Shown piece by piece: positions 5,724 through 63,571 of a stretch of DNA of 64,000 nt (position 1 is its first letter; the number at the start of each line of letters is the position of its first letter). The stretch spans positions 688 through 64,687 of the forward strand of contig BPJI01000002.1 in assembly GCA_026004535.1 (NCBI GenBank), given 5' to 3'. The translations under genes were made by a program, and so were the position numbers. Under the pieces are notes generated by a model, which ran no database searches, was not told the origin of the DNA, and worked only from the letters and a program-made list of their open reading frames with translations. The stretch comes from Candidatus Parcubacteria bacterium (GTDB lineage Bacteria; Patescibacteriota; Minisyncoccia; UBA6257; HR35).

Positions 5724-6191
5724 TCATTTTAATTTGTTTATATATTCGCTTAATTGAGAATACTCTTCATCATTAAGCAAATTTTTCATATTTATCATAA
5801 AATCTTCCTTAAACGACAAAGTGTATATCGTATTAAAGCATTTCCAATCCTGAATTGTTTTTACGGCACTTTTAAAAATTGACATCAATTCACTAAATTC
5901 GCCATCAGTAAAAATGCTGAAAGTTGATTTATTGTCATTGTAAATAACTCTAATTTTAACAACAGCATTTTTAAACAATTTTGTTTTTATTTCATTTGAC
6001 AGGCAATTCTTTTTAATATCATCTGATTCATTTAATGTGCTCCCTGAACCTGACTTTTGATTGATTAAATCATACAAAGCGTTTTTTTCAGATTCGTTTC
6101 TATTTGAACGAATAAGAAAATATGCAAACGTTCCCGTTGAAATGAAACCTAAAAAAATTAAAGATACCGGTATTTTGCTATTTTCTGCCAT
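5724..6191 (-). CDS. hypothetical N-anchored protein (155 aa)
   Basis: An ORF with an N-terminal TM helix. Confidence 0.5.
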   Translation of the reverse strand: MAENSKIPVSLIFLGFISTGTFAYFLIRSNRNESEKNALYDLINQKSGSGSTLNESDDIKKNCLSNEIKTKLFKNAVVKIRVIYNDNKSTFSIFTDGEFSELMSIFKSAVKTIQDWKCFNTIYTLSFKEDFMINMKNLLNDEEYSQLSEYINKLK

Positions 6192-21800: not shown

Positions 21801-22440
21801 TATAATGATGAGAAATCCTATTTACACAAGTGTGCATGAGTTTAATAATTTTAGTTTAATGTATCCGGCATTTATGTTTTTAACCACAAACTATAATGAT
21901 ATTAAATTTACTTCAATATTTAATATTATATATAATTTAAAAGGTACAACTGTGTCAGGCAATCCTTCCAATGCAGTAATGTTTATTACAAATATGAAAG
22001 AGCGTCAATTTAAATTAGTGATTGCATTTTTAGATAAAGTTGTTAGTGATAATGAAGTAACAATACTGAAGCAAGATTTTTCTAAAATTTTCTTTGATAT
22101 GCAAAATAAATTAGACATAGATAGTGTTAAAGAATATGATGTTTATTCTAAAGACAAAGAAATAGAAAAAGCTTTGGATGTGTATGAAAAAATTGAAAGC
22201 GAAAACAAAGTGCAGGTTGTAGCAAACAATATATTTTATACATTGAATGACAAGTTTATTGATGCAAACCTAAAAAGCAAAACATTTTTGATTGGTGAAG
22301 GTATATTCAGTCAACCTTTAACAGGAATAATAATTAATGCAACAAGTGAGGGCGGAATAGATGAAGAGACACCTGTGTTAAACATTAATATACCAATTAA
22401 AATTGATAACATTACGGATATAATTAATAATATAAATTAA
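15868..22440 (+). CDS. giant (2190 aa) SNF2/DExH-like superfamily-2 helicase with an insertion of about 850 aa between the two RecA lobes and a C-terminal extension of about 900 aa
   Basis: Motifs at helicase-appropriate positions: motif I GDTMGFGKT (nt 16210-16236), motif Ia FFVCSKEVLLSEI, motif II VIYDESHNIAG (nt about 17089), an SAT-like MSATF, motif V-like NRRASESVSLHA and motif VI QKRGRINRRGQ (nt about 19675). An acidic D/E/S low-complexity linker sits just before the C-terminal lobe. Confidence 0.75.
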   Translation: MQEGKLLKYSKNVLLDLSGKVKFAEDTLIPFNLSAELSEQETNLLFDILKELEKHEDINKNKSLYSLLLQYLELKLKPDKIDDIAENLTGEQLYAIALGIRNFESNNHRKGVIIGDTMGFGKTRIAAGYVQYFINRRNAPFFVCSKEVLLSEIINEYIEINKSKFYDANGKFDIKKARKFKLLLFNERKNIDVLYKKGKEYVSETIYSSDINDLKNFVEDVLNDELLRKFILLFNLFNFSGNKNLSKEIKNYNKNLAKYYTDKNKVRDSKKEEGHKYYYFKMLFSVGYILQDDINFVKNKRLFYVNNKEELVDVLDYLSDIIEDFENKYNEAKKRFFEILVNNGFIGIGTTYSQLRTDFSANDLYINVDLSNFYKKDNFKVKFKNKDNKTLKSILFNLTSIFTNVIYDESHNIAGAETIGKTTTNFLYHNFHPYLNLIAFESLLYSLDIKKYELTKPILQEKLKNDEKNRFSTLIEALNTTKFIYVSISKTFTNLLPENDNQNDDNKKEFLWFLNDALKSDYISLSNDFISNKFSAFMSATFVKNNGIIMPILSLFTDIGTFPNKMMYFMSFDTKMFNSENAIYFKQYLPKYLTKRGYYINRQFELVTPQYEPINYIINKNQKENVNDIYKRFINHFKLLKSKKYIMENIYSYFLLKNVIDVYNFKNSTEGYFIDIFRENLVNVNSILTSVNTSDYGNFKKLFIKTIIDISNFCEDISIIEKAFGKKIDDSIVNNDVLYDMLNNDNEFDYKLRCTFIIIQFGAIKYGLNNSEIKIITLIDDSIYQNTSGFNIWKRIDELIGVKEEDNFFTSNGFQIFKKYKEAKDFILETKGNDINNDNNDSISYKINFEYTIDEIFQPYTEKRYENILKFYEDNNTYFNLYAYANTDHLLAVRRLIASNIISMFTKFNFGRFNNSLVKNFITAIKTVDITHKSIEILEGNKNEKLDWIPKNNDGYKLIVSYDHTFDNYSKVILNSYEGKKVKNDVRYLFDAIEKDNNVFKNIAYQINLNFVVDDYEKLLNKYKDIILEKYIEYSKDKQLPNVDRAFQIIDKTYSSLFTTENEFSGFPNDKLFCLKGQYSIYKNLQYLYQEYLINKDIDYNIPFQPYDYINNTLKNYFRQKGIKFNMLDGTGRRYKFEQIQGDSEGYGYIIKTGEILADSDESEDDIDDIDENESILTTKDIESDEEIESSETESEDENVYVAVSKDENYIINLREKIHLFNNDNQYNLIIINRRASESVSLHASEKFKDRRPRVMIIAEAESNSINEIQKRGRINRRGQVAKPYYYYPYTTIPYEKRIIMMLKKKLIHLEGVTKGNRNLSDFSEEELRKLQDLENEDANKILVDILQKKLSDSSLPLFDLHLSDMRDLFALIQDNETGRDERRFNNRIASGKGLITKFMQNYYVFDFETQETILNSLIESYFNIIKDVVEEKPIKANIESRDVFYYSNYNRYYDYNNENLNNTLIEIPEIKYSLTYREKNNKINYANIYIDAIKYLSNVDEDKKIINQYIAFLKYVTKENESVVQDEVLANVLDVDSLYEDLYYYHEKLMQGVNINIKYAFILLKAFNIFASSLNKKTYINLLRGFYYKLYKTHILGLYEKVIEMFSQFNQRQNLISQIDYFSNLQLFKQNVELLLNIPEIDKYQDGDEYFEEQISKIEGKYHLIKDENGEEFKLYVLESNEGESNVPVIMQLDKKIVDLIIYLSDVNRAYLYYKKIVAHIYESMNREGSEISKNISDKLKKDILDIIVNNKHDYYNNNIDIHLRKVKNEIYHNALCNVLVKKMYLQEANKVETKIFKDGISLIQKINTNLYKKLYKAWEKVFNKLDNENNNINDVIRKMYFGKDITQDEYLKLDKKEVAKFEKYQSEVKKSLISYTKYLFDKAVKHYEDNLLKDKDENTNVNFHLYQKIDLKELVDYVIDYMSNSEYVLTNEIVNVVEKEAYIEENYDKFVKLPKNLKDLYIKEIRYGNIEMLIDNIMMRNPIYTSVHEFNNFSLMYPAFMFLTTNYNDIKFTSIFNIIYNLKGTTVSGNPSNAVMFITNMKERQFKLVIAFLDKVVSDNEVTILKQDFSKIFFDMQNKLDIDSVKEYDVYSKDKEIEKALDVYEKIESENKVQVVANNIFYTLNDKFIDANLKSKTFLIGEGIFSQPLTGIIINATSEGGIDEETPVLNINIPIKIDNITDIINNIN

Positions 22441-48239: not shown

Positions 48240-49796
48240 ATGGTGATAGAAGCATCACATAAAAAATTAAACGGGGTTGTTTACACACCTCAATGGATAG
48301 TGGAATTAATTTTAGATTATTTGAACTATCAAAAAAATATTGAAACAAAAAGAATAATTGACCCTGCTTGTGGCGATGGAGCTTTTTTAGAAATTATAGT
48401 GGATAGATTTATTAAAAGTGCCCTTAAAAATAATTTATCTACCATTAAAATTAAAGAATTATTAGAGCAAAATATTTATGGATGGGATATTGATAAAAAA
48501 GCATTGAAATTTTGTAAGATTAAATTAGATAATGTTGCTCATCAATATGATATAAAAAACATCAATTGGAATTTAACTAATGTAGATAGCTTAAATAAAG
48601 AATTTGCCAAGAAATACTTTAATTTTTTTGATTTTGTTGTTGGGAATCCACCATATATCAGAATTCAGAATATTGAAAAAGACAAACGAAAAAATATACA
48701 AGAAAGTTGGATTTTGTGTAAGAAAGGTTCTACAGATATATTTTTGGCTTTTTTTGAATTAGGAGTTTACTTATTAAATACAGAAGGGTTATTAGGTTAC
48801 ATTACTCCAAATACTTATTTAAAAACTTCTGCAGGAAAGGATTTAAGAATTTTCATAAAAAACAAATTAAAAACATTAATCAACTTTAATCATTATCAGG
48901 TTTTTGAAAATGCAACCACTTACTCTTTAATTACAATTCTGTCAAAAAAAAATAATGAAAACAAATTTTCTTTATACGAAGGAAATGATAAGAAAAAAAT
49001 AAAATTTGTTGATGTAATTGAAACAGAGAATATTAATAATAACAACTGGATTTTGGCTTCTAATAAAATACTAAAAAGAATAAAAGCAATAGAAAGCAGA
49101 GGAATTCCTTTAAAAGAAATTGCTAATATACATGTAGGTATTACCACACTTGCTGATGATTATTATATATTTGAAAACCCTGTTTTTCAACAAGATACAG
49201 CAATAATATATGTTGATAATGAATACTTTGAAATAGAAAATAATATTTTGAAACCTATTGTAAAAGCATCCATTTTAAAGCATTCTAACGAAGAACAAAA
49301 TAGGTATATTATTTTTCCATACAAACTAAATCATAATAAACATCAAATAATTCCTGAAGAAGAACTTAAAAAGGAATATCCATTGACATATCATTATTTT
49401 ACAAAAATAAAAGACAAACTATTATCAAGAGACGGTGGAAATGAAAATACAGTTGCATGGTATGCATTTGGAAGATCACAAGGGCTTGATACATCATTTG
49501 GTAAAAAGATACTAACATCTCCAATGAATTTAAAACCCAATTTTATACTATGGGAAAAACCTGAATATACTTTCTATTCCGGTTATTGTATAAAATATGA
49601 TGGAGACCTTTACGAATTGCTTAAAGAGTTAAATTCTGATGATATGGACTTTTATATAAAATATGTTAGCAGAGATTATAAAAACAATTATAAATCCTAT
49701 TCTAAAACATTTATTGAAAATTTCGGCATTGATAATCCAAAAATTATTGAAGAATATAAAAGAAAAAAACACTCCTTATTTGATTTTCAGTATTAA
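48240..49796 (+). CDS. gamma-class N6-adenine DNA methyltransferase (518 aa)
   Basis: The motif order is X, I, IV: VVYTPQWIV, IIDPACGDGAFLE (AdoMet binding) and VVGNPPYIRIQ (NPPY catalytic). A long C-terminal target-recognition region follows. Confidence 0.8.
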   Translation: MVIEASHKKLNGVVYTPQWIVELILDYLNYQKNIETKRIIDPACGDGAFLEIIVDRFIKSALKNNLSTIKIKELLEQNIYGWDIDKKALKFCKIKLDNVAHQYDIKNINWNLTNVDSLNKEFAKKYFNFFDFVVGNPPYIRIQNIEKDKRKNIQESWILCKKGSTDIFLAFFELGVYLLNTEGLLGYITPNTYLKTSAGKDLRIFIKNKLKTLINFNHYQVFENATTYSLITILSKKNNENKFSLYEGNDKKKIKFVDVIETENINNNNWILASNKILKRIKAIESRGIPLKEIANIHVGITTLADDYYIFENPVFQQDTAIIYVDNEYFEIENNILKPIVKASILKHSNEEQNRYIIFPYKLNHNKHQIIPEEELKKEYPLTYHYFTKIKDKLLSRDGGNENTVAWYAFGRSQGLDTSFGKKILTSPMNLKPNFILWEKPEYTFYSGYCIKYDGDLYELLKELNSDDMDFYIKYVSRDYKNNYKSYSKTFIENFGIDNPKIIEEYKRKKHSLFDFQY

Positions 49797-50886: not shown

Positions 50887-51069
50887 ATGAAAAAAACAAA
50901 AATCAAAAAAAATAAAACAGAAGTAGGCGTATCAAAAAATCCGCACATATTAGAGGAAGATATATTAAAACACGAGGAGCATAAAGATATTAAAACAGGT
51001 ACAAACATTCTTTGTATAAACATCGAAGAGACAAAAAGGAAAGGTTCAAGAATTCGTGCTTTGGATTAG
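50887..51069 (+). CDS. conserved 60-aa protein, paralogue of 57036..57221
   Basis: MKKTKIKKNKTEVGVSKNPHILEEDILKHEEHKDIKTGTNILCINIEETKRKGSRIRALD aligns along its full length with the 57036 product at roughly 70 % identity. Confidence 0.55.
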   Translation: MKKTKIKKNKTEVGVSKNPHILEEDILKHEEHKDIKTGTNILCINIEETKRKGSRIRALD

Positions 51070-51077
51070 TATAAATA

Positions 51078-52436
51078 ATGGACACAATAAAGAATAAAAT
51101 CAAAAATTCTTTATCGTATTATTTTGACCTATTGTCGGAAATTGAGAGCAAATTTAAAGTAAAAGCATATATTGTCGGTGGTGCTGTAAGAGACGCAGGC
51201 ATAGATGAAAAAGTAAAGGACATTGATATAGTTATTATTCCTTATAGGTATAATGTTTCCATAAATTTATTGGAATTGCAGACAAAAAAAATATCGCCTG
51301 CACAGGCGTTTCCTGTCTATATCTACACTTCAGACAATCCCAAATATTCAAACCAGCAGTATGAATTGGCAATAGGAAGGAAAGAGTATAAAACAGGTAT
51401 TGGGCATAAAGGTTTCAATATTGTTCCTGCGGATGATATTTACACTGACTTATTAAGACGTGATTTTACAATAAACGCAATCGCAATAGACAAAAACGGC
51501 GAATTACATTATCCCAAAGACGCATTAAGAGACCTTGAAAAAAGGTTATTAAATCCTGTCGTTGAAAAACACTTCGTAGAAGACCCGTTGAGATACTATC
51601 GTGCCTTACGTTTTGCAACAAAAGGTTTTTCACTTACCCTTAGAATGATAAACACATTAAACAATATCCCACAATACGAATTGGAATCTATTCCTAATGA
51701 AAGAATATCAAATGAAATGATGAAGGCATTTGGCGGTAAGTATCCAGAAAGATTTTTTACCTGCATGGCTTTATTGAATAATATACCTAATAAATTTCAG
51801 CACATAAAAAAATGTTTATACGTTCCTTCGGGAAGAGGTGAAAAGCACTCTGACGAAAGGCATTTGTTAGATCACTTGAATAAAGTATTGAAATTATCAA
51901 CAAGATTGACAAATGATTATAATGTAAGATTGGCGGCATTCTATCATGATATTGGAAAGATATTTACAGACCCTAAAGAATATCCGAGACATTATGGACA
52001 TGAGCAAAATGGCTACGATTTTGCCATTAAGTGGTTCAAAGACATGCGTTTTGAAAATAAAACAGTAGAGATTGTTTCCCGTGCGTGCAGGTATCATATG
52101 CTTATAGACAATTACTATAATTTAAGGTTATCTAAATTGATTGACATTGTTTCTGAAAACAAATATTACATAAAAGAATTGGTTATGGTAAGTATTTGTG
52201 ATGTGGATGATGAAAGGTATGAAAGAGAAGTTTGGGATGTTTTTAATCTTGTCTTGGAGGTGGTGAATATGAAACCGTCAATATTGATTGGTGAAGAAAA
52301 ATTAAAGGAATTAAGCAGGAAAAATCCAGAAAATATCAGAAGTCTTTTAAAGCAACGACGTGTTGAAATATTGAAAGAAAAGTTATTAAGCGATATTAAG
52401 TTTAGTAATTATATGATAATGCAGAAAGTAATATAA
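51078..52436 (+). CDS. cca: CCA-adding tRNA nucleotidyltransferase / poly(A) polymerase-family enzyme with an HD domain
   Basis: The pol-beta nucleotidyltransferase head motif YIVGGAVRDAGIDEKVKDIDIVI (GG.VRD...D.D) is present, and the HD motif AAFYHDIGK lies downstream. The size (452 aa) is typical of a bacterial Cca. Confidence 0.8.
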   Translation: MDTIKNKIKNSLSYYFDLLSEIESKFKVKAYIVGGAVRDAGIDEKVKDIDIVIIPYRYNVSINLLELQTKKISPAQAFPVYIYTSDNPKYSNQQYELAIGRKEYKTGIGHKGFNIVPADDIYTDLLRRDFTINAIAIDKNGELHYPKDALRDLEKRLLNPVVEKHFVEDPLRYYRALRFATKGFSLTLRMINTLNNIPQYELESIPNERISNEMMKAFGGKYPERFFTCMALLNNIPNKFQHIKKCLYVPSGRGEKHSDERHLLDHLNKVLKLSTRLTNDYNVRLAAFYHDIGKIFTDPKEYPRHYGHEQNGYDFAIKWFKDMRFENKTVEIVSRACRYHMLIDNYYNLRLSKLIDIVSENKYYIKELVMVSICDVDDERYEREVWDVFNLVLEVVNMKPSILIGEEKLKELSRKNPENIRSLLKQRRVEILKEKLLSDIKFSNYMIMQKVI

Positions 52437-56273: not shown

Positions 56274-56660
56274 TCAATAATTGCTCTCATATTTCATTGA
56301 TTTTAATTTATATAACAAATTATTTTTTACTTCAACAGAATTTAAATCTAACTTATTATCAATAATATATTGTTGCACAAATGTTGGCACATCTCCGTAT
56401 TTTGCATTCTTTGAACAAAGATAATGATATACGGTAAATTCATCTCCGTAATCAATAATTTCTGAAGCGTTTTGGTTTTTGTATATTGTGAGAGAGTAAA
56501 AAGTATCGTCTTCAATTATGTGTTTAAACATATTGACCACTCTCTCATTCTCAAGATTCACAAACCTTTTGTAAAAGTTTGTGATATAGAGACGAAAATC
56601 TTTAACGGTAATTATTTTTAACTCACCGTTAAAGATATTGATTCTGATATAGAAAATCAT
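56274..56660 (-). CDS. hypothetical protein (128 aa)
   Basis: An ORF. Confidence 0.45.
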   Translation of the reverse strand: MIFYIRINIFNGELKIITVKDFRLYITNFYKRFVNLENERVVNMFKHIIEDDTFYSLTIYKNQNASEIIDYGDEFTVYHYLCSKNAKYGDVPTFVQQYIIDNKLDLNSVEVKNNLLYKLKSMKYESNY

Positions 56661-56947
56661 AAATATTTTTCAATTATGTGGTAGTTATCTTTGATAAACT
56701 GCTCTCTTTCTTTACGTTTCTTGTAAAACTTCCCTCTTAATTTAGGGTTTCTTTGCTGTATTAACCTTGAATATCTGCCGACTGATTCAAGGTTAATACT
56801 ATTAAATATTTCGTAAAATATTTTTAAATTTTTTTTGCCTTTTACACACTCCGTATATTTTAAGTAGAGTGTGTATAAAATTGCTTTATTTTCCCGTGCT
56901 TCGGGATATTTATTTAAAATTAACTCAATAATTTGTTTGCTTATCAT
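56657..56947 (-). CDS. hypothetical basic protein (96 aa)
   Basis: An ORF with a 4-nt overlap. Confidence 0.45.
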   Translation of the reverse strand: MISKQIIELILNKYPEARENKAILYTLYLKYTECVKGKKNLKIFYEIFNSINLESVGRYSRLIQQRNPKLRGKFYKKRKEREQFIKDNYHIIEKYL

Positions 56948-57003
56948 AGCATTAAATTTTATCGTTAAAAATAAAAAAAATACAAAAAAACAAATAAAAA
57001 AAA

Positions 57004-57030
57004 GGCAACGCCGTTCGGGCGTTGCCTTTT
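57004..57030 (-). terminator. rho-independent terminator GGCAACGCC-gttcg-GGCGTTGCC followed by TTTT (and an A-run on the other side)
   Basis: A perfect 9-bp GC-rich stem 6 nt downstream of the 57036..57221 gene on the minus strand. Confidence 0.75.
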
Positions 57031-57035
57031 GGTTC

Positions 57036-57221
57036 TCAATCCAGGGCTCTTATTCTTGAGCCCTTTCTTTTTGTCTCCTCAACACTGACACACAGGATTT
57101 TTGCACCTGTTTTAATATCACTATGTTCACCGTGTTTTAGTAAATCTTCTTCTAATACGTGGGGGTGTTTAGACACGCCCACCTCTTTAGTTGTTTTTTT
57201 AATTTTTTCTGTTTTTTTCAT
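57036..57221 (-). CDS. conserved 61-aa protein, paralogue of 50887..51069
   Basis: MKKTEKIKKTTKEVGVSKHPHVLEEDLLKHGEHSDIKTGAKILCVSVEETKRKGSRIRALD. It is GC-richer than its neighbours. Confidence 0.55.
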   Translation of the reverse strand: MKKTEKIKKTTKEVGVSKHPHVLEEDLLKHGEHSDIKTGAKILCVSVEETKRKGSRIRALD

Positions 57222-57310
57222 AGTTTTTAAATTTTAAAGTTTACACCATAATATGACGAACATGCCTGAATCCATTGCGACCAGCGGGTTTGAGCCACTT
57301 TTTGACTTCT
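57216..57310. repeat. left copy of an inverted repeat of about 95 bp; it includes the start codon and 5' region of the 57036 gene
   Basis: It matches the reverse complement of 59199-59293. Runs of 35 nt and 21 nt are identical, with one 1-nt indel and a divergent patch of about 13 nt. Confidence 0.85.
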
Positions 57311-57330
57311 TTCATTTTTTATTATCTTTG
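57301..57330 (+). promoter_or_regulatory. Bacteroidetes sigma-A-type promoter: -33 TTTG (57301-57304), 18-nt spacer, -7 TATCTTTG (57323-57330)
   Basis: It matches TTTG-N18-21-TAnnTTTG and lies 18 nt upstream of the MTase ATG at 57348. Confidence 0.5.
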
Positions 57331-57347
57331 TGCAAATACTTATTGTT

Positions 57348-58631
57348 ATGAATAAATACGGTTTAAACTTCATTGGAAAAGAATATGCAATAAATCTATA
57401 TCAAAAAGAAACTGAAAAAAAGTTATATTTAAACGAAAGTTTAAGCAGAAACACCTATGAAACCAACAATATTGTGATACAAGGTGATAATTTAGAGGCA
57501 TTGAAACTATTAAAGAAAGATTATGAAGGTAAAATAAAGTGTATTTATATTGACCCGCCGTATAACACAGGAAACAAATTTGTTTACAACGATAAGTTTA
57601 ATGATTTAGAACTATTCAGCATATTGGGAATAGATAAGAAAGAGTCACGCAAATTAAGAACGAAAAAGGGGCATAATGCATGGTTGACATTTATGTATCC
57701 ACGATTGATGTTGGCAAGGGATTTATTGAGCGACGACGGTGTGATTTTTATCAGCATAGATGATAATGGGTTTTCAAATTTGAAGTTAATATGTGATGAA
57801 ATTTTTGGGGAGGAGAATTTTGTGGCTACACTTATACATCAAAGAGCCAAGGGAGGCGGACAAGCCAAGCATATAGTAAAAGGGCATGATTACATATTGT
57901 TGTATAGTAAAAATATAAATTTAATTAAACCTTTAAGAAGAGATAAAACCAAAAAGTATAAAATTATTGATAAAAATGGAAAAAAATATATTTATAATGA
58001 TGATGTTGTTAGAAAAACTTTCGGTAAATATAACAAAAACATGGGAGACAGAAGATGTTATTATGAAGAATTAAATAAATACAAGAATGAAGCACAGGTT
58101 AAAAAAATTAAAGAAAAGATTAATAACGGAGAATACTTTTTAGAAAAAACAGAATCAGGTTTACATAAAATATGTAAGTTAGAACCACTTGAAGAAGCGT
58201 ATTCAAAAGTTTATTCAATTATTAATAGTAATGATAGCACTATTAAAGTTTTATCTGAAAAAGGTATCGAAGATTTAGAAAAACTTAACATACCAGTTTT
58301 TACTTATCCTAAACCAGTTGAATTAATAAAGTTTTTAATAAAATCTTTACCCGAAAACAACATCATCCTCGACTTCTTCGCAGGCAGTGGCACTACAGGA
58401 CACGCAGTGATGCAACTAAATGCCGAAGACGGGGGCAACCGTAAATTTATACTCGTTCAATTGGATGAACCGTTAAAAGAAGGAACGAAAGCATATCAAT
58501 ATTGCATTGAGCATAATTTAAAACCTGTGCTTTCATCCCTTACTATTGAAAGATTGAAAAAGGCAGGCGATATAATTAAGAATAATGGCAATAATGTGGA
58601 TATAGGATTTAAGGTTTATGATTTAATATAA
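57348..58631 (+). CDS. beta-class DNA methyltransferase (N-4/N-6 domain). I moved the start to the ATG at 57348; the ORF track began at a GTG
   Basis: Motif IV CIYIDPPYNTGN precedes motif I FFAGSGTTGHAV, which is the beta-class order. Confidence 0.8.
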   Translation: MNKYGLNFIGKEYAINLYQKETEKKLYLNESLSRNTYETNNIVIQGDNLEALKLLKKDYEGKIKCIYIDPPYNTGNKFVYNDKFNDLELFSILGIDKKESRKLRTKKGHNAWLTFMYPRLMLARDLLSDDGVIFISIDDNGFSNLKLICDEIFGEENFVATLIHQRAKGGGQAKHIVKGHDYILLYSKNINLIKPLRRDKTKKYKIIDKNGKKYIYNDDVVRKTFGKYNKNMGDRRCYYEELNKYKNEAQVKKIKEKINNGEYFLEKTESGLHKICKLEPLEEAYSKVYSIINSNDSTIKVLSEKGIEDLEKLNIPVFTYPKPVELIKFLIKSLPENNIILDFFAGSGTTGHAVMQLNAEDGGNRKFILVQLDEPLKEGTKAYQYCIEHNLKPVLSSLTIERLKKAGDIIKNNGNNVDIGFKVYDLI

Positions 58632-58663
58632 AAAAATATAGCGTAAACATTAAAAAATAAAAA

Positions 58664-59122
58664 ATGAAGACAAAATTTGAAACAAAGTGGAGTATTTCAT
58701 ACGACTATAAAACATCGGACGGGTTTTTTTTTAAAAGGGATTATGGAAAGTACCGTTCGGGATTACTTTGGATATATAAGGATGGAGTAATATATGTGGC
58801 GGAAGATGAGGACTTGGGCGAAGACCTTATATTTTTGAGAAATGCTGTGCACGGCACTATATTGTGGATAGCAAGAGGAAATTTTGGACAAACCAAAAAT
58901 GACACTAATGCCTTTTGGTTTGATCCGCATGGTTCCTATATACTTATTTGCGTTGATTGTGGTGGTGGTTTCAAAAAGAGTCTTGGATATGCAGATAATT
59001 GGGTGCTGCAAAAAGCAATTTACTACCATCGGGTTGTTTCAAAATGCGGCGAAATAGGGCTCGTTTGGATAATCTTGGATCTTAATGATATTACACAATC
59101 AGACAACGCTGCTAATTTTTAA
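58664..59122 (+). CDS. hypothetical protein (152 aa) co-oriented with the MTase inside the inverted-repeat-bounded segment
   Basis: An ORF rich in aromatic and Gly residues. The antisense ORF is spurious. Confidence 0.5.
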   Translation: MKTKFETKWSISYDYKTSDGFFFKRDYGKYRSGLLWIYKDGVIYVAEDEDLGEDLIFLRNAVHGTILWIARGNFGQTKNDTNAFWFDPHGSYILICVDCGGGFKKSLGYADNWVLQKAIYYHRVVSKCGEIGLVWIILDLNDITQSDNAANF

Positions 59123-59198
59123 TTCTAAATTTAAAAGTTCTACCTTGTAAAAAATATCTATATATTAAATCAAAAGTTCATTTAACATGATAAAACAT

Positions 59199-59293
59199 AA
59201 GAAGTCAAAAAGTGGCTCAAACCCGCTGGTCGCAATGGATTGAGGTGTTTTCGTCATATTATGGTGTAAACTTTAAAATTTAAAACTATGAAA
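59199..59293. repeat. right copy of the inverted repeat of about 95 bp; it includes the start codon of the 59288 gene
   Basis: See the left copy. Confidence 0.85.
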
Positions 59294-59542
59294 AATTACA
59301 GAAGAGAAGTAAAAAGATCGCAAGGTAGTTTTCTTAAATTTTGGGAAATTTGCCTCGATGAAGGGTACTTCATCGGGGATTGGCCGTTTGTAATGGCGGC
59401 CTATACCATCTTCCTCGAAGATGGAGGGAGGAGAACGAGTCAAACAGAAAAAGAGTACCGGGAACTCATGTCCCGGTATGAAGCTCCATCAGCCATGAAA
59501 GAGGAAAAAATAAAAAAGGGCATGTTCGGTGAAACCGAATAA
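59288..59542 (+). CDS. hypothetical GC-richer small protein (84 aa)
   Basis: An ORF with atypical (GC-richer) codon usage, driven by the inverted-repeat promoter/leader copy. Confidence 0.5.
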   Translation: MKNYRREVKRSQGSFLKFWEICLDEGYFIGDWPFVMAAYTIFLEDGGRRTSQTEKEYRELMSRYEAPSAMKEEKIKKGMFGETE

Positions 59543-59556
59543 TGCCCTTTTTTTAT
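59516..59556 (+). terminator. compound hairpin terminator AAGGGCAT-g-TTCGG-tgaaa-CCGAA-ta-ATGCCCTT followed by T7; it overlaps the stop codon
   Basis: Nested stems read directly from the sequence, with a T-run at 59548-59556. Confidence 0.7.
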
Positions 59557-59625
59557 TTAAAGGTGACCACGACCTGTAACGTGAAACACCTGCCGTGTGG
59601 TGCAGGCAGTTAAATTAAAACTTTT

Positions 59626-60072
59626 ATGGAAACTATAATATTACATCAAAACAAGAAATTTAGAATGTATAGCGAAAGAGGCGGCATGACTTGGAGAATA
59701 TTAAAATTGTTCTCTGAGGATACTCTTATCAACGAGGTAAGAGTGTCTGTAGCCGCATTGGAAAGTGAAAAAGGATTAGGTCTGTACGACCAAATCCATG
59801 AAATGCTATATGGAGATTATTATAATAAAATCTCTATAATAGCATGGAGGTATCAAAGCGACATATCAGAATACATGAACTATAGGGATGGGTATCGTTT
59901 TATAAAATTGTATCTTGCGTCAGATAATCAAATTATAATAGATACACACAAAGGAATATATCTTTTGTCCCAAGCGGACGAGATATATTCCCGAAGCGCC
60001 TCATTTACTATAGGAATTGCGAAAATAGTTGCGCACTTCATGAAAGAAAAATTGAATATTCATATATTCTAA
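59626..60072 (+). CDS. hypothetical protein (148 aa)
   Basis: An ORF preceded by taaattaaaacttttATG. Confidence 0.5.
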   Translation: METIILHQNKKFRMYSERGGMTWRILKLFSEDTLINEVRVSVAALESEKGLGLYDQIHEMLYGDYYNKISIIAWRYQSDISEYMNYRDGYRFIKLYLASDNQIIIDTHKGIYLLSQADEIYSRSASFTIGIAKIVAHFMKEKLNIHIF

Positions 60073-60081
60073 AAGAAAAAT

Positions 60082-60102
60082 GGGCACTTGATGCCCTTTT
60101 TT
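60082..60102 (+). terminator. hairpin GGGCA-cttga-TGCCC followed by T6
   Basis: A 5-bp GC stem plus a T-run 10 nt after the stop codon. Confidence 0.55.
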
Positions 60103-60125
60103 AAATAAATATTAAAATTAAAACT

Positions 60126-61064
60126 ATGAGCGAAAAAAATAACATCAAAGATATAAGAAAAAATAAATTAGGGGCAACAGATATTGTTGCGATAAATCTG
60201 TTAAGCCCCTTCAAAACACCGTTGGATGTCTATCTTGAAAAGGTAGACAATATTGATACGGTGGATGAAACAAACGAAAATATTGTATTGGGCAAGTGCC
60301 TTGAAAAAGGTATTGCAGAGGCATTTTGCCAAATACATTCTTATAAATTGTCTGAATTGATTGACGAAAAGTCAAGGCAATTCATACACCCTGAATATGA
60401 TTTTATTTCATGTATGATAGATTATATTTGCCTCGACGAATCGGGGAATTTTAACATACTTGAGATCAAAAACGTAACCGGTGCGGTTAAAGAACCGCAC
60501 AGCCATTATGCTGCACAGTTAAAGATACAAATGTACATTACGGGCGTAGAAAGGGGGATACTGTGTTATTATGATTCTTACGGCTTAAAGCACTTTGATT
60601 TTGAATTGGACAATACAAAAAAAGAAGTGGAAAAAATGATAGAAAAGGCTGTAGAGTTTTGGAACGAACATATTGTAAACAAAGTTCCGCCAAAACCTGT
60701 CACAATGGAAGATTTGGGAAAAATAGAAACAGAAAACATAGAGATGACGATAGAATCAGGTATGATAAATGACGGGACGTTGGAGAACGATATTGTTTAT
60801 TGGTGGAATCAATACAAAGAAGCGAAAAAATATGAAGGCTTGTACAAGAAAAAATCAGAGGACGCAGAGAAAAGGATAGTGCAAGCAATTGCGAATAAAT
60901 TGCAAAACATACCCTCATCTTTGATTGTCAATGATGGGGGAAAAAAATTATTCAAATTGAAAAAAATTCAAGCAAGATATTTGGATAATGATAAAATAAA
61001 AGAAGAGTTGGGCGATAGGATTGAGGATTTTTACAAATTAAAATCATTTTTCCGTTTATATTGA
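60126..61064 (+). CDS. YqaJ/lambda-exonuclease-like PD-(D/E)xK exonuclease candidate (312 aa)
   Basis: IDYICLDESGNFNILEIKNVTG supplies a D...D-E...E-I-K arrangement. The gene is translationally coupled (4-nt overlap) to a RecT-like gene. Confidence 0.55.
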   Translation: MSEKNNIKDIRKNKLGATDIVAINLLSPFKTPLDVYLEKVDNIDTVDETNENIVLGKCLEKGIAEAFCQIHSYKLSELIDEKSRQFIHPEYDFISCMIDYICLDESGNFNILEIKNVTGAVKEPHSHYAAQLKIQMYITGVERGILCYYDSYGLKHFDFELDNTKKEVEKMIEKAVEFWNEHIVNKVPPKPVTMEDLGKIETENIEMTIESGMINDGTLENDIVYWWNQYKEAKKYEGLYKKKSEDAEKRIVQAIANKLQNIPSSLIVNDGGKKLFKLKKIQARYLDNDKIKEELGDRIEDFYKLKSFFRLY

Positions 61065-61891
61065 TTATTAATTTATTAACCCAAAAATATAATGTTATGA
61101 GCATAATGACAAAAACCTACGAAAAATTAAAAAAGTGCCATCCGATTTATACGAATGTGCCGTATGATGACAGCAAATGCAAAGAATTTGCTTTTGCTAT
61201 CTCAAAATTTAAGAAAAATATTTTAGAATCATCTATTGTAGGGGCTTATCTCAAATATGTAAACCTTAATTTGTCGTTAAGAGAAGAGTTGGGAGAGTTG
61301 TATCTTATCCCATACAGAGTCAGAAACTCTAAAGAAGACCTTTATATTATTCAGATGACCTTTGGATATAAAGGTATAAGAAAATGGCTACTTCAAAGTA
61401 AAAATATTAAAAACATCATTGCAAACACCGTTTGCATAAGCGACCACATTCATATTGACTTTGGTAATATGACCGTTGAGCATAGCATAAAAGATTATAC
61501 AGTAAAACGTTCAGACCCTGACAATATTATAGGCGTGTATGCCATTGTTTACTTTACCGACGGAGAAAGATACATAAAGTATCTATCAAAAGATGATATT
61601 GAACGTTATAGGTTGCAAAACCCAGACCAAAAGAAAGATGAAATACGTGGTATTTGGGCTAATTATTATGACTATATGATAAAAGGAAAGTTGATAAAAT
61701 CATTGCACAACGATATACCGTTGGAAGCGGATGTATTAAAGGCAATACAATTGGATAATGCCATAATAAAGGACGTGGAGGAGGTTGATTATGTGAATGC
61801 CGAAGAAGTATTTAATGAGAATGAAAGCAATAAAAATAATGATGGCGATAAAGATTCTAAAAATGAAAGTGATACTAAAAATGAAAGTTAA
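61061..61891 (+). CDS. RecT-family single-strand annealing protein candidate (276 aa)
   Basis: LIPYRVRNSKEDLYIIQMTFGYKGIRKWLLQS resembles the RecT core (..PY......v.fi.GYkGl..la..s). Confidence 0.5.
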   Translation: MIINLLTQKYNVMSIMTKTYEKLKKCHPIYTNVPYDDSKCKEFAFAISKFKKNILESSIVGAYLKYVNLNLSLREELGELYLIPYRVRNSKEDLYIIQMTFGYKGIRKWLLQSKNIKNIIANTVCISDHIHIDFGNMTVEHSIKDYTVKRSDPDNIIGVYAIVYFTDGERYIKYLSKDDIERYRLQNPDQKKDEIRGIWANYYDYMIKGKLIKSLHNDIPLEADVLKAIQLDNAIIKDVEEVDYVNAEEVFNENESNKNNDGDKDSKNESDTKNES

Positions 61892-61914
61892 AAATATTCA
61901 TAAAATAAATAAAT

Positions 61915-62217
61915 ATGAAGAAGCAAATGAAACAGAATTATGAATTAAAAAGATACGATGCATACCATTTATTTGACAATGTTTACCGTGTAAAAATAGG
62001 AATGTTTGTATGTGGCTTTGAAAACTATCAAGACGCAGAAGAATATCTTAAGCAAAATAAAGACAAATGTGCAACGGCGTATATTTATGAAGCGGAATTA
62101 GAGGAGGGTAACACCGTGAATATTTTAAGTAGGGCATATTGTGGATACGGGGATGATGACAAAGGTTCATATTCTTATCACGGCACAACGTTTTATATTG
62201 GTGTATTGGAAAAATGA
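61915..62217 (+). CDS. hypothetical protein (100 aa)
   Basis: An ORF. Confidence 0.45.
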   Translation: MKKQMKQNYELKRYDAYHLFDNVYRVKIGMFVCGFENYQDAEEYLKQNKDKCATAYIYEAELEEGNTVNILSRAYCGYGDDDKGSYSYHGTTFYIGVLEK

Positions 62218-62291
62218 GTGAAATGGATAGTAAGTTAAAAAAAAGAAAACATGTAATTTTGGAAACATCATTCTAAAAAATAAATTAAATT

Positions 62292-62711
62292 ATGGAAATG
62301 TTAAACATGTCAAAGAAAAAATTAGAAATTTCAAGTAGTGAAATTGCAAGGCAATTCTGCATAGACAACAATATTGAATTGCCTAAAGGAAGTGAAGAAG
62401 CATTGGAATACGGAAAAAATTTTGAGAATGTTATTAGCAGTGCTTTGCATTTTTCATATAAATATGGATATACGGGAAACTTAAAAGAGTATATAAAATC
62501 ACATAAGCATATCTTAATTAAAGGTATGCAGGAAATGATGGATTTCAACAATATTGTGATTGATACGGAAATAAAATTAGACGATTATGATGCAAAATAC
62601 GATTATTTAGATTCGTTGACATTCAAACAAATTGAAGCAATGGCAGGTGAGAAACTTTTAGATTATTTCATTAAAGGTATTAAAATAAATGATACTTTTG
62701 AAAAGCAATAG
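62292..62711 (+). CDS. hypothetical protein (139 aa)
   Basis: An ORF; the antisense ORF is spurious. Confidence 0.45.
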   Translation: MEMLNMSKKKLEISSSEIARQFCIDNNIELPKGSEEALEYGKNFENVISSALHFSYKYGYTGNLKEYIKSHKHILIKGMQEMMDFNNIVIDTEIKLDDYDAKYDYLDSLTFKQIEAMAGEKLLDYFIKGIKINDTFEKQ

Positions 62712-62787
62712 AACCGCCCGTGATAATTATCGAGGAAGTAAAGAAATTGAACCAAAACGATAATGATAATATTTAAATCTTAAACCA

Positions 62788-63540
62788 ATGAATTGGAAAG
62801 AAAAATTCCCAAAGGAAAACAGGTATTTTGAAACTGACAACGGGATATTATATTGCGGGGATTGTTTAGAAATTTTACCAAAATTCCCGGAAATGGAAAT
62901 TGATTTGGTTTTAACCGACCCGCCGTATGGAATTAATTTCAATTCTAATGTCCCGAAAAAAGGTAGAGAAAAAGAACTGATTAAGAACGATGATAGCATA
63001 GATACACTTTTAAAATTATTTAATGAATCCTTGAAAAATTTAACAAGAATATTGAAAGATGATGCAGAGATTTATTGGTTTTGCAGTGCCGGTGGAAGAG
63101 TTTCACCTTATGCATATCTGGCAATAGAATTAGAGAAATATTATCCCATTTTTAAGCATAAGAATTTACTCGTTTGGGACAAACTTAGCCCTGGCTTTGG
63201 CTGGGATTGGAGATATCAGCATGAGTTAATTATTCAGATAGTGAAAGGTAAAGGTATCAAAAATACCGACAGCGGTGCTTCGAATATTATACGTGCAAAA
63301 AAAGTCATCCCGCAAATGGACGAGCACCCGACGCCCAAAAGCACGAATGTAATCAATCAAATTTTAATTAGGAAACCATCGGATGTAGTCCTTGATATGT
63401 TTTTAGGCAGTGGCACAACGGCATTTTGCTGTGAAAAATCAAATCGTAAATGGATAGGAATAGAAATCGAGCCAAAATACTGCGAAATGGCAAAAAAAAG
63501 GATAGAATCCGAAGCCAAACAATTAAAATTAAACCTATGA
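62788..63540 (+). CDS. beta-class DNA methyltransferase (N-4/N-6 domain) (250 aa)
   Basis: Motif IV LVLTDPPYGINF precedes motif I FLGSGTTAFCCE, with a C-terminal WIGIEIEPKYCEMAKKRI. Confidence 0.8.
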   Translation: MNWKEKFPKENRYFETDNGILYCGDCLEILPKFPEMEIDLVLTDPPYGINFNSNVPKKGREKELIKNDDSIDTLLKLFNESLKNLTRILKDDAEIYWFCSAGGRVSPYAYLAIELEKYYPIFKHKNLLVWDKLSPGFGWDWRYQHELIIQIVKGKGIKNTDSGASNIIRAKKVIPQMDEHPTPKSTNVINQILIRKPSDVVLDMFLGSGTTAFCCEKSNRKWIGIEIEPKYCEMAKKRIESEAKQLKLNL

Positions 63541-63571
63541 ACCTTTAAGCATAATAATATAATTTAAAGTT

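What the first reader, a model, noticed from the sequence alone, without database searches (positions are those of the whole stretch)
57216..59293. Inverted repeats of about 95 bp (roughly 94 % identical) flanking a beta-class MTase plus an unknown 152-aa ORF; each repeat carries the 5' leader and start codon of an outward-facing gene
57216-57310 is the reverse complement of 59199-59293, with 35 nt and 21 nt perfectly identical, one 1-nt indel and a 13-nt divergent core. The repeats are GC-richer than the flanks (…CCATTGCGACCAGCGGGTTTGAGCCAC…). Each extends through the ATG and first codons (MKK / MKN) of a gene transcribed outwards: 57036-57221 to the left and 59288-59542 to the right. They therefore look like a duplicated promoter plus 5'-UTR module. 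Between them lies a 1.9-kb segment with its own host-type promoter, an N4/N6 MTase and an unknown ORF. I see four possible readings. (a) An MTase moron inserted by recombination into a promoter, duplicating it. (b) A recombinase-invertible segment. (c) A shared regulatory RNA leader giving coordinate control of the two flanking GC-rich genes. (d) A homing-type mobile cassette. No recombinase is encoded nearby.
Basis: seen in the sequence. Interest (0 to 1): 0.65.

Follow-up and report, generated by a model that had tools for sequence, protein, structure and literature searches.

The report
Shared upstream module at phage gene-cassette junctions
The inverted repeat is real, but it is two copies of a portable ~90-bp "front end" that this uncultured phage lineage attaches to different small accessory genes, and they happen to bracket a methyltransferase whose DNA-recognition domain was recently copied from the host's restriction system; this is an ordinary-to-moderately interesting case of modular phage evolution.

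Summary
The repeat exists: 57225-57311 is the reverse complement of 59199-59285 (83/87 nt). With one 1-nt indel it extends through both start codons.

It is probably not a transposon end, a homing cassette or a structured RNA leader, and a recombinase-driven switch is unlikely. The same module precedes three unrelated small genes: ORF61, ORF84, and a different 65-aa gene in a co-occurring variant contig. ORF84 plus its terminator occurs in a third contig behind a different upstream module, with homology starting 3 nt before the ATG. So the arms are copies of a portable upstream module at cassette junctions, closest to the PeSL "mobile regulatory cassettes" of T4-like phages. One cassette is simply inserted leftward and one rightward.

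The arms show no RNA fold better than shuffles and no host-type (Bacteroidota TAHHTTTG) promoter facing outward. The only intergenic promoter of that type in 56424-60145 drives the methyltransferase.

That methyltransferase is a truncated Type III Mod. Its recognition-domain segment (57792-58369) is 99% identical in DNA to the mod gene of a complete res-mod system in a Thermonema MAG. This is a recent host-specificity capture, and it identifies the host.

Orientation heterogeneity could not be tested.

The parts
57000..57030 (-). Intrinsic terminator closing the ORF61 unit (13-bp stem, T-run)
57036..57221 (-). ORF61, a small ORFan protein transcribed leftward. It is a real gene with a paralog at 50887-51069 (78% aa, dN/dS 0.07). 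The paralog has its own TAAATTTG promoter and no repeat.
57214..57311 (-). Left arm of the inverted repeat. The 87-nt core is 57225-57311. The L-type variable core is at 57261-57268. Read on the minus strand it is the upstream module of ORF61.
57301..57330 (+). Bacteroidota-type promoter of the MTase. TTTG at 57301-57304 lies inside the inner end of the left arm. The -7 box TATCTTTG is at 57323-57330, 18 nt before the ATG.
   Evidence: consensus from PMC6847099
57348..58631 (+). Orphan beta-class N6/N4 DNA methyltransferase, a truncated Type III Mod homolog (427 aa against about 600-620 aa for the cellular homologs listed)
57792..58369 (+). Central segment of the MTase gene between the catalytic and AdoMet-binding motifs, inferred to be the target-recognition region. 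It is 99% identical in DNA (6 mismatches in 578 nt, none in the last 338 nt) to the mod gene of a complete res-mod locus in a Thermonema sp. MAG. The flanks fall to about 72% and then below detection.
58664..59122 (+). ORF152, an ORFan. It is a real gene (5 synonymous and 0 non-synonymous differences to the variant contig). It has no homolog and no usable structure model.
59199..59295 (+). Right arm of the inverted repeat. The 87-nt core is 59199-59285. It is the upstream module of ORF84. It is identical in variant contig L002 except for one extra A, and there it precedes a different gene.
59285..59558 (+). ORF84 cassette: ORF84 (59288-59542) plus its own terminator hairpin and T-run. The whole unit, and nothing beyond it, is homologous to L006 4998-5265.
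   Evidence: (I22)
60126..61891 (+). YqaJ-type exonuclease and RecT annealing protein, the homologous-recombination machinery that could act on the modules

Best explanation
The two arms are copies of a portable ~90-bp upstream module. It runs from GAAGTCAAA to the A-rich start context AAAACTATGAAAAA.

This phage lineage carries the module in front of small accessory ORFan genes, in a hyperplastic region next to its RecT/exonuclease genes. Such modules, together with the hairpin-type modules seen in relatives, are the conserved patches between otherwise unrelated cassettes. Homologous or microhomology-mediated recombination at them swaps the genes behind them.

The inverted arrangement is a by-product. 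One promoter-less 'module + ORF + terminator' unit (ORF61) sits leftward at the point where leftward and rightward transcription diverge. Another (ORF84) sits rightward. The MTase-ORF152 pair between them is not a mobile unit bounded by the repeats. It heads the rightward genes and has the only canonical intergenic host promoter of the region.

The MTase is an orphan Type III Mod derivative. Its recognition region was recently replaced by gene conversion from the Thermonema host's mod gene. It would thereby protect phage DNA from that host's Type III restriction enzyme.

Shown:
- the repeat itself;
- the same module on three different genes;
- cassette boundaries at the ATG and after the terminator;
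- 99% DNA identity to the host mod gene.

Inferred:
- that recombination at the modules is the swapping mechanism;
- that the module contributes translation-initiation context and perhaps a non-canonical promoter;
- that the captured domain confers the host's methylation specificity.
For: 1. One module, three genes. The module precedes ORF61 and ORF84 in the window and a 65-aa gene in L002. The sequences diverge right after CTATGAAAAA.

2. One gene, two modules. In L006 the ORF84 homolog (82% aa) follows a hairpin-type module. The homology spans exactly 3 nt before the ATG to the end of the terminator.

3. Population-level replacement. L002 equals window 58625-63550, except that the ORF84 unit is replaced by three paralogous small genes. 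Each of these is preceded by a repeated hairpin + leader module.

4. Family relationship. The last ~45 nt of the arm align with the L002 hairpin modules (GTCA..TA.GG.G.AAACTT.AAAA.TTTAAAACTATG). The arm also starts with the same GAAGTCAAA that follows their hairpins.

5. Generic start context. AAATTTAAAACTATG-like sequences occur 17 times against 3.3 expected, mostly at start codons. This fits the A-rich, SD-less initiation context of Bacteroidota (PMC6847099).

6. The genes behind the modules are ORFans or nearly so. All three are under purifying selection.

7. RecT and the YqaJ exonuclease are adjacent.

8. Host capture. The best MTase homolog is the Thermonema Mod, next to a 969-aa Res. There are 6 mismatches in 578 nt over the central inter-motif segment.

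9. Host type. TAnnTTTG boxes are enriched upstream of genes, 27 against 8.3 expected.

10. The arrangement matches the published description of PeSLs: ~100-bp conserved intergenic cassettes reaching the start codon, upstream of ORFans, at indel and replacement boundaries (PMC2839356; PMC4122927).
Against: - Only three copies of the arm-type module exist in everything searchable: two in the window and one in L002. No relatives were found in IMG/VR, JGI metagenomes, GTDB genomes or INPHARED.
- The arms contain no TAHHTTTG box facing outward. They contain only a weak sigma-70-like match (9/12), in a scan that found no more sites than shuffles. So the regulatory function of the module is not demonstrated, and ORF61 has no identified promoter.
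- The arm itself has no stem-loop, unlike PeSLs.
- The 50-nt GC-rich distal half is unique to the arms and unexplained.
- The four clustered substitutions (P about 0.001) suggest a site-specific functional difference or a single complex mutation. The model does not account for this.
- The spacer plus right arm show no substitution between window and L002 (163 nt), while ORF152 synonymous sites differ by 5.4%. This hints at extra constraint or a very recent shared origin.
Confidence: 0.6

Rival explanations
1. Homologous-recombination flip-flop. The 36- and 43-nt perfect blocks let the phage RecT/exonuclease (or host RecA) invert 57312-59198. That segment carries the only canonical intergenic host promoter of the region. 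Inversion would redirect early transcription from the rightward genes (ORF84 and onward) to ORF61 and the leftward genes.
For: - In 56424-60145 the only TAHHTTTG boxes are 57323-57330(+), which is intergenic, and 58830-58837(+), which lies inside ORF152. There is none on the minus strand. So ORF61 and the next two leftward genes lack a canonical promoter.
- The -33 TTTG lies inside the arm, so the MTase promoter would be rebuilt identically after inversion.
- The recombination genes are adjacent.
- The arms are long enough for RecT-type annealing (own knowledge).
Against: - No orientation variant was seen. The window and L002 agree at the right arm.
- Many other operons in this genome also lack a TAHHTTTG box, so its absence is not special.
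- There is no site-specific recombinase.
- ORF61 and ORF84 each end in a strong terminator, which limits any operon-level effect.
- Such a switch has no precedent for a methyltransferase cassette in a phage, to my knowledge.
Confidence: 0.1
2. Coordinate-control element. The unique GC-rich 50 nt of the arms is an operator, or a promoter for a phage-specific factor. It would co-regulate ORF61 and ORF84. The four clustered substitutions would tune affinity differently at the two genes.
For: - The 43-nt and 36-nt blocks are identical in all three copies. There is no substitution between the strains over 163 nt, although ORF152 synonymous sites differ by 5.4%.
- The clustering of the 4 differences is non-random, and the R-type core is conserved in L002.
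- No host-type promoter is present in the arms, yet ORF61 needs one.
Against: - No dyad symmetry or internal repeat typical of operators was noted in the arm, and the repeat finder reported none there.
- No further copy exists anywhere in 64 kb.
- The regulator candidate is unknown.
- Three copies, all nearly identical, cannot distinguish constraint from recency.
- This reading is compatible with, rather than exclusive of, the best explanation.
Confidence: 0.2
3. A mobile MTase cassette whose ends are the repeats: transposon-like terminal inverted repeats, or a homing element.
For: There are inverted repeats on both sides of a cargo that includes a host-related gene.
Against: - No transposase, integrase or homing endonuclease was found.
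- There is no target-site duplication at the outer ends (read).
- The arms contain the start codons of flanking genes.
- The same arm occurs in front of a different gene in L002.
- The host-identical DNA is internal to the MTase and ends far from the arms.
Confidence: 0.03
4. Assembly artefact: a chimeric or inverted join at a repeat.
For: The source is a metagenome assembly, and the left arm is seen only in this contig.
Against: - The arms differ by 4 substitutions and an indel.
- The right arm and both its flanks are reproduced in an independent contig.
- Gene order and the promoter are coherent across the left arm.
Confidence: 0.02

Closest known systems
PeSL (promoter-early stem-loop) mobile regulatory cassettes of T4-like phages (Arbiol et al. 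2010, PMC2839356; Comeau et al. 2014, PMC4122927)
   Same: - A conserved intergenic cassette of about 100 bp that reaches the start codon.
- It sits upstream of ORFans in a plastic region.
- It lies at the boundaries of gene replacements between close relatives.
- It brings expression signals along with the gene.
- Relatives (L002, L006) carry stem-loop + leader versions in direct arrays.
   Different: - The phage shows no T4-like features in the scans run here, and its inferred host is a Bacteroidota.
- The arm has no stem-loop and no host-consensus promoter.
- Only three copies are known.
- The two window copies are inverted, so recombination between them would invert rather than excise.
- Mini-circles were not tested.
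Morons and conserved boundary or linker sequences of lambdoid phages (own knowledge: Juhala et al. 2000; Clark et al. 2001)
   Same: - The ORF61 and ORF84 units are compact, GC-richer 'gene + own terminator' insertions between older genes.
- The exchange points coincide with short conserved sequences at gene boundaries.
   Different: - Classical morons carry their own host promoter. None is recognisable here.
- Here the conserved boundary is a long shared 90-nt module.
Phage orphan methyltransferases that capture host R-M specificity (own knowledge: Hill et al. 1991, lactococcal phage phi50 acquiring part of the LlaI methylase; the multispecific Bacillus phage MTases)
   Same: - A phage MTase without a cognate nuclease.
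- A segment nearly identical to a host R-M methylase gene.
- The expected outcome is self-protection from that R-M system.
   Different: - Here only the recognition region of a Type III Mod homolog was replaced, inside a pre-existing diverged phage copy.
- The phage protein lacks about 56 N-terminal and about 100 C-terminal residues of the host Mod.
- Activity and motif are untested.
Invertible DNA segments (Gin/Cin/Hin systems, Bacteroides invertons)
   Same: Inverted repeats flank a promoter-bearing segment.
   Different: - No site-specific recombinase is present.
- The arms are 3-5 times longer than typical inverton repeats.
- No orientation variants were observed.

Membership tests
PeSL-type mobile regulatory cassette | Repeated conserved intergenic motif of about 100 bp, ending at the start codon of an ORFan | tested here: met
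   There are two copies in the window and one in L002, in front of three different ORFans.
PeSL-type mobile regulatory cassette | Contains a promoter matching the host housekeeping consensus | tested here: not met
   There is no TAHHTTTG in the outward direction in either arm. The only sigma-70-like match is weak (9/12), and the scan found no more sites than shuffles.
PeSL-type mobile regulatory cassette | Contains a stable stem-loop (terminator or attenuator) | tested here: not met
   The arm folds no better than shuffles (z -0.44, +0.69, -0.78 and +0.81). Related modules in L002 and L006 do have a covarying 12-bp hairpin, but the arm does not.
PeSL-type mobile regulatory cassette | Marks the boundaries of insertions or replacements between closely related genomes | tested here: met
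   Window and L002 diverge directly after the arm. The ORF84 cassette in L006 starts 3 nt before the ATG.
PeSL-type mobile regulatory cassette | Recombination between copies yields mini-circles or deletions | not testable with these tools
   This needs reads or PCR. The window copies are inverted, so excision is not expected between them.
Site-specific invertible segment (inverton, Gin/Hin type) | Serine or tyrosine recombinase encoded in or near the element | tested here: not met
   No recombinase, integrase or transposase Pfam family was found in 78 window ORFs. About 5 kb of the 69-kb source contig lies outside the window and was not seen.
Site-specific invertible segment (inverton, Gin/Hin type) | Both orientations present in the population | not testable with these tools
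The two assemblies agree on orientation at the right arm.
Transposon or MITE-like element with terminal inverted repeats | Transposase, or target-site duplication at the outer ends | tested here: not met
   There is no transposase. The outer flanks ...TTTTCTG and TTACAGA... are not a direct repeat, and the arms overlap the start codons.
Structured cis-regulatory RNA leader or riboswitch | Conserved secondary structure or a match to a known family | tested here: not met
   There is no Rfam hit at gathering score, and only E>3 in the arm. No fold is better than shuffles. The 5-bp candidate stem is broken by a substitution in the left copy.
Type III R-M Mod methyltransferase (beta class) | N6_N4_Mtase domain with DPPY before FxGxG and a recognition domain between them | tested here: met
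   PF01555 scores 3.3e-38 over residues 63-374. DPPYN lies near residue 75 and FAGSGTTG near residue 343. The best homologs are Mod proteins of about 600-620 aa.
Type III R-M Mod methyltransferase (beta class) | Adjacent res gene, full-length Mod with C-terminal domain | tested here: not met
   There is no res gene next to it in the window. The protein is 427 aa, against 609 aa for the host Mod. The host locus does have a res of 969 aa. The phage gene is therefore an orphan, truncated derivative.

The most novel reading that the evidence does not exclude
The arm-type module and the conserved-loop hairpin modules of the relatives together form a dedicated, integrase-free cassette-exchange platform. 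Standardised linkers end at a fixed start context. The phage's own RecT/exonuclease uses them to dock, swap and re-orient ORFan cassettes, each an ORF plus terminator, next to the recombination genes. This would be a PeSL-like system evolved independently in a phage of thermophilic Bacteroidota. The inverted pair would additionally allow low-frequency flipping of the promoter-bearing MTase segment.
Probability: 0.2. Interest if true: 0.6.

Novelty: new variant of a known kind. Interest (0 to 1): 0.38.

Why it matters
It would also operate in an unrelated, uncultured phage lineage of hot-spring Bacteroidota.

More concretely, the 99%-identical recognition-domain segment has three uses:
- It gives a direct phage-host link. 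The host is Thermonema, not the Parcubacteria or Woesearchaeota bins in which the contigs were deposited.
- It is a dated snapshot of a phage updating its anti-restriction methyltransferase against a specific co-resident Type III system.
- It makes a testable prediction: the same methylated motif should appear on phage and host DNA.

No Thermonema phage appeared in the held literature.

Tried and rejected
**tRNA, att site or known RNA.** ARAGORN and Rfam found nothing in or near the arms.

**Structured leader.** All four strand/copy combinations fold no better than shuffles.

**Further copies.**
- The 27-nt core, the 16-nt inner end and the 21-nt proximal core have no other match in the window.
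- The exact core is absent from IMG/VR, JGI metagenomes and GTDB genomes.

**Relatives lacking the cassette.**
- Searches with ORF84, the exonuclease and RecT found no close relative in IMG/VR or JGI.
- INPHARED has no DNA match and only <27% identity protein matches.
- The IMG/VR hit L001 is a chance 23-residue match in a GC-rich phage.

**Exact-protein look-ups.** ORF61, ORF84, the MTase (both starts), ORF148 and the exonuclease returned nothing. The Logan contig L003 stops 2.3 kb short of the repeat.

**Diversity-generating retroelement.** The differences between the arms are not adenine-specific, and no RT was found.

**Arm as a remnant of the mod 5' end.** The inward 32-aa and 30-aa ORFs of the arms show no similarity to the 56 N-terminal residues of the host Mod.

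**ORF152 as the missing Mod C-terminus, or as an endonuclease.**
- It has no homolog at all.
- It has no Pfam or PHROG hit.
- The AlphaFold model has pLDDT 45.5 and is unusable, so no fold search was run.

**Integron attC analogy for the hairpins.** A GTTRRRY-like word sits in the loop, not at the base. There is also no integrase. Rejected.

**ORF84 distant hits.** The hits to 365-1568-aa proteins are at most marginal (E 6e-11 to 5e-5). The two inspected, P0125 and P0127, are low-complexity repeats and were judged spurious. P0126 was not inspected.
Full report
**1. Observation**

The repeat is real. Aligning 57190-57330(+) with the reverse complement of 59180-59320 gives an ungapped 87-nt block (57225-57311 against 59199-59285) with 83 identities (also pair I1). 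After a 1-nt length difference in the A/T run, the similarity continues through CTATGAAAAA, that is through the start codons of ORF61 (57036-57221, minus) and ORF84 (59288-59542, plus).

The 27-nt GC-rich core occurs only at these two sites, where shuffles expect 0.00.

The four substitutions lie within 8 nt (57261-57268). In 200,000 simulations, four random substitutions in 87 nt were that close with P about 0.001.

The description of the identity blocks (actually 36 and 43 nt) and of a '13-nt divergent core' is slightly off.

**2. The genes are real**

- ORF61 has a paralog at 50887-51069 (78% aa identity, dN/dS 0.07). The paralog has its own TAAATTTG box, and the homology starts only at AAAACTATG.
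- ORF84 has an 82%-identical homolog in another contig (dN/dS 0.18). It has one more distant homolog in 1.84 billion representatives.
- ORF152 differs from its copy in a variant contig by 5 synonymous and 0 non-synonymous changes. It has no other homolog.
- None of the three has a Pfam or PHROG family.

**3. What the element is not**

- There is no tRNA and no Rfam family.
- Neither strand of either arm folds better than dinucleotide shuffles.
- No integrase, invertase, transposase, reverse transcriptase or homing endonuclease family is found in 78 ORFs of the window.
- The outer ends show no target-site duplication.
- The window is phage-like. It encodes endolysin-type peptidases and a GH108 lysozyme, has tape-measure and minor-head PHROG hits, and encodes a YqaJ exonuclease, RecT and three MTases. 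It has no close relative in INPHARED.

**4. Comparative evidence**

The source is a 69,155-bp contig of a hot-spring MAG labelled 'Candidatus Parcubacteria'.

*L002.* A 5.5-kb contig assigned to assembly GCA_026003415.1, and carrying the same KatS3mg096-series protein, corresponds to window 58625-63550.
- It has ORF152, the 76-nt spacer and the right arm. There is no substitution over these 163 nt, only one extra A.
- Directly after CTATGAAAAA it continues with a different 65-aa gene.
- That gene is followed by further small genes of the same family, one of them apparently truncated. A repeated module precedes these and the ORF148 homolog. The module consists of a 12-bp hairpin, then GAAGTCAAAG, then a leader ending AAAAACTATG.

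*Relationship of the arm to these modules.* The arm starts with the same GAAGTCAAA. Its last ~45 nt align with these modules.

*L006.* A third contig, BPGB01000016.1, is labelled 'Woesearchaeota'.
- It carries the ORF84 homolog behind a hairpin-type module rather than the arm.
- Its homology to the window begins 3 nt before the ATG and ends at the T-run of the terminator.

Two patterns follow. One module serves three genes, and one gene is served by two modules. The junctions lie at the start context and after the terminator.

That start context is generic in this genome. AAATTTAAAACTATG-like sequences occur 17 times against 3.3 expected, mostly at start codons. It has A at -3, as described for SD-less Bacteroidota mRNAs (PMC6847099).

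**5. Promoters**

TAnnTTTG, the Bacteroidota -7 box (PMC6847099), is enriched within 80 nt upstream of same-strand genes: 27 against 8.3 expected, 17 of them intergenic.

Between 56424 and 60145 there are only two such boxes.
- TATCTTTG at 57323-57330 lies 18 nt before the MTase ATG. A TTTG lies 18 nt upstream of it, inside the inner end of the left arm.
- The other lies inside ORF152.
- None is on the minus strand.

So the arms carry no canonical host promoter facing outward, and ORF61's promoter is unidentified. A weak sigma-70-like match (TCGTCA-17-TAAAAT, 9/12) exists in both arms, but the scan as a whole found no more sites than shuffles. Many other operons of this genome also lack the box, so another promoter class must exist.

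**6. The methyltransferase**

The protein has PF01555 with DPPY before FxGxG (beta class).

Its best homolog is the 609-aa Mod of a Thermonema sp. MAG from the same BP-prefixed series of assembly accessions (74% identity over the whole 427 aa). That Mod lies next to a 969-aa Res with DEAD/ResIII/endonuclease domains.

The identity is mosaic.
- At the protein level, residues about 149-368 are almost identical, while the ends are roughly 50-60% identical by eye.
- At the DNA level, 57792-58369 has 6 mismatches in 578 nt, and none from 58032 to 58369.
- 57684-57791 is about 72% identical.
- Beyond that, similarity is below detection.

The identical tract covers the region between the catalytic motifs and motif I, which is the target-recognition region.

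The phage protein lacks the host Mod's first 56 and last ~100 residues.

The host res-mod locus is AT-richer (0.35-0.36) than its neighbours (0.49-0.53). The direction of transfer is therefore not proven.

The simplest reading is a recent gene conversion that gave the phage MTase the specificity of the host's Type III system. This follows a known anti-restriction logic (own knowledge: phage phi50 and LlaI). It also identifies the host as Thermonema (Bacteroidota), in agreement with the promoter type. The repeats are not the boundaries of this exchange.

**7. Interpretation**

The best-supported model is that the arms are two copies of a portable upstream module at cassette junctions. They sit in a hyperplastic region next to the phage's recombination genes. 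One module + ORF + terminator unit is inserted leftward and one rightward, around the first genes of the rightward arm.

The closest described system is the PeSL cassettes of T4-like phages. These are ~100-bp conserved intergenic units reaching the start codon, upstream of ORFans, at replacement boundaries (PMC2839356; PMC4122927).

Two defining PeSL features are tested and not met for the arm itself: a host-consensus promoter and a stem-loop. I therefore call it a variant that works like a PeSL, not a member.

Three things remain unexplained:
- the unique GC-rich 50 nt;
- the clustered four substitutions (the R-type is conserved in L002);
- the lack of any substitution in spacer plus arm between the strains.

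These leave room for a specific operator or promoter function. A homologous-recombination flip of the promoter-bearing segment is physically plausible, but there is no evidence for it.

**8. Verdict**

The element is a new variant of a known kind and is moderately interesting. Most of that interest comes from the phage-host recognition-domain capture and the cassette architecture found in the relatives.

Noticed in passing
window 57792-58369 (within MTase 57348-58631); L004 6634-7211: The central inter-motif (inferred recognition) segment of the phage MTase is 99% identical in DNA to the mod gene of a complete Type III res-mod locus in a Thermonema sp. MAG (GCA_026003375.1; the same protein is also in GCA_026003275.1). 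The rest of the gene is only distantly similar. This is a recent phage-host gene conversion and a direct host link.
   Followed up: yes
whole window; L002; L006: The source contigs are deposited in MAGs labelled Candidatus Parcubacteria (KatS3mg096) and Candidatus Woesearchaeota (KatS3mg002). Bacteroidota-type TAnnTTTG promoters, SD-less starts and the Thermonema mod identity all indicate a phage of Bacteroidota, so the contigs were probably mis-binned by low GC. No Thermonema phage was found in the held literature.
   Followed up: partly
L002 869-905, 1169-1205, 1468-1504; L006 4926-4962, 5512-5548, about 5926-5955: A repeated intergenic hairpin lies between small gene cassettes. It has an 11-12-bp stem of unrelated sequence in different copies, and a conserved 13-nt loop TTAARNNNNCTCA closed by GG/CC. 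Nine of 12 pairs show compensatory changes, and 95.5% of cells are paired against 30-49% in slid controls. There is no Rfam match. It is absent from the window. Its function is unknown; it could be a terminator, a processing site or a protein-binding site.
   Followed up: partly
L006 3442-3479, 4883-4920, 5906-5943, 6651-6688; window 59561-59581: A second repeated intergenic element in L006 (CCAGGGCTGCGTCTGGGTTAACAACGCAG, a hairpin) occurs four times at cassette boundaries. The 21 nt that follow one copy (AGGTGACCACGACCTGTAACG) are identical to window 59561-59581, just downstream of the ORF84 terminator.
   Followed up: partly
window 50887-51069: This is a paralog of ORF61 (60 aa, 78% identical, dN/dS 0.07). 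It has its own TAAATTTG promoter and lies directly upstream of a CCA-adding-enzyme-like gene (51078-52436). The family has no other member in 5.8 billion proteins.
   Followed up: yes
window 59288-59332 against L006 5001-5045: The first 45 nt of the ORF84 coding sequence are identical between the window and L006, while the remaining 210 nt differ at 42 positions. This means either strong constraint on the 5' coding region or a recombination breakpoint inside the gene.
   Followed up: partly
window 57253-57351 (+) and 59257-59165 (-): Each arm opens an inward-facing ATG ORF (32 and 30 aa). The first 19 residues are largely shared (three differ), and both have hydrophobic tails. The stop of the left one overlaps the MTase start (ATGA). 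They are probably not genes, because the MTase promoter lies inside the left one, but this was not tested.
   Followed up: no
window 7303, 11450, 12847, 15856, 45003, 53037, 56945, 57219, 59276, 60114 and others: A genome-wide start context resembling AAATTTAAAACTATG occurs 17 times against 3.3 expected by shuffling, mostly exactly at start codons. It is a Kozak-like A-rich context with A at -3.
   Followed up: partly
window 15868-22440: This 2190-aa ORF has Strawberry-notch-type helicase domains (Helicase_C_4, AAA_34, ResIII). It resembles the giant anti-restriction or helicase proteins of plasmids and phages. It has no PDB or PHROG match.
   Followed up: no
window 48240-49796 and 62788-63540: The same 64 kb holds two further DNA methyltransferases, one Eco57I/MmeI-type and one a 250-aa N6_N4 MTase. 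The phage thus carries at least three orphan MTases. Whether these also mirror host systems was not tested.
   Followed up: no
L006 3958-4874: Two GC-rich genes sit inside an otherwise AT-rich phage-like contig, each between repeated intergenic modules. One is a 182-aa protein with a P-loop-like GPPKAGKS motif and the other an 85-aa protein. They look like foreign cargo cassettes.
   Followed up: no
L006 9428-10250: A 78-nt tandem repeat (7 or more copies, 60-77% identity to the reference copy) lies within ORFs encoding repeated QMEEIRLGLE-like units.
   Followed up: no
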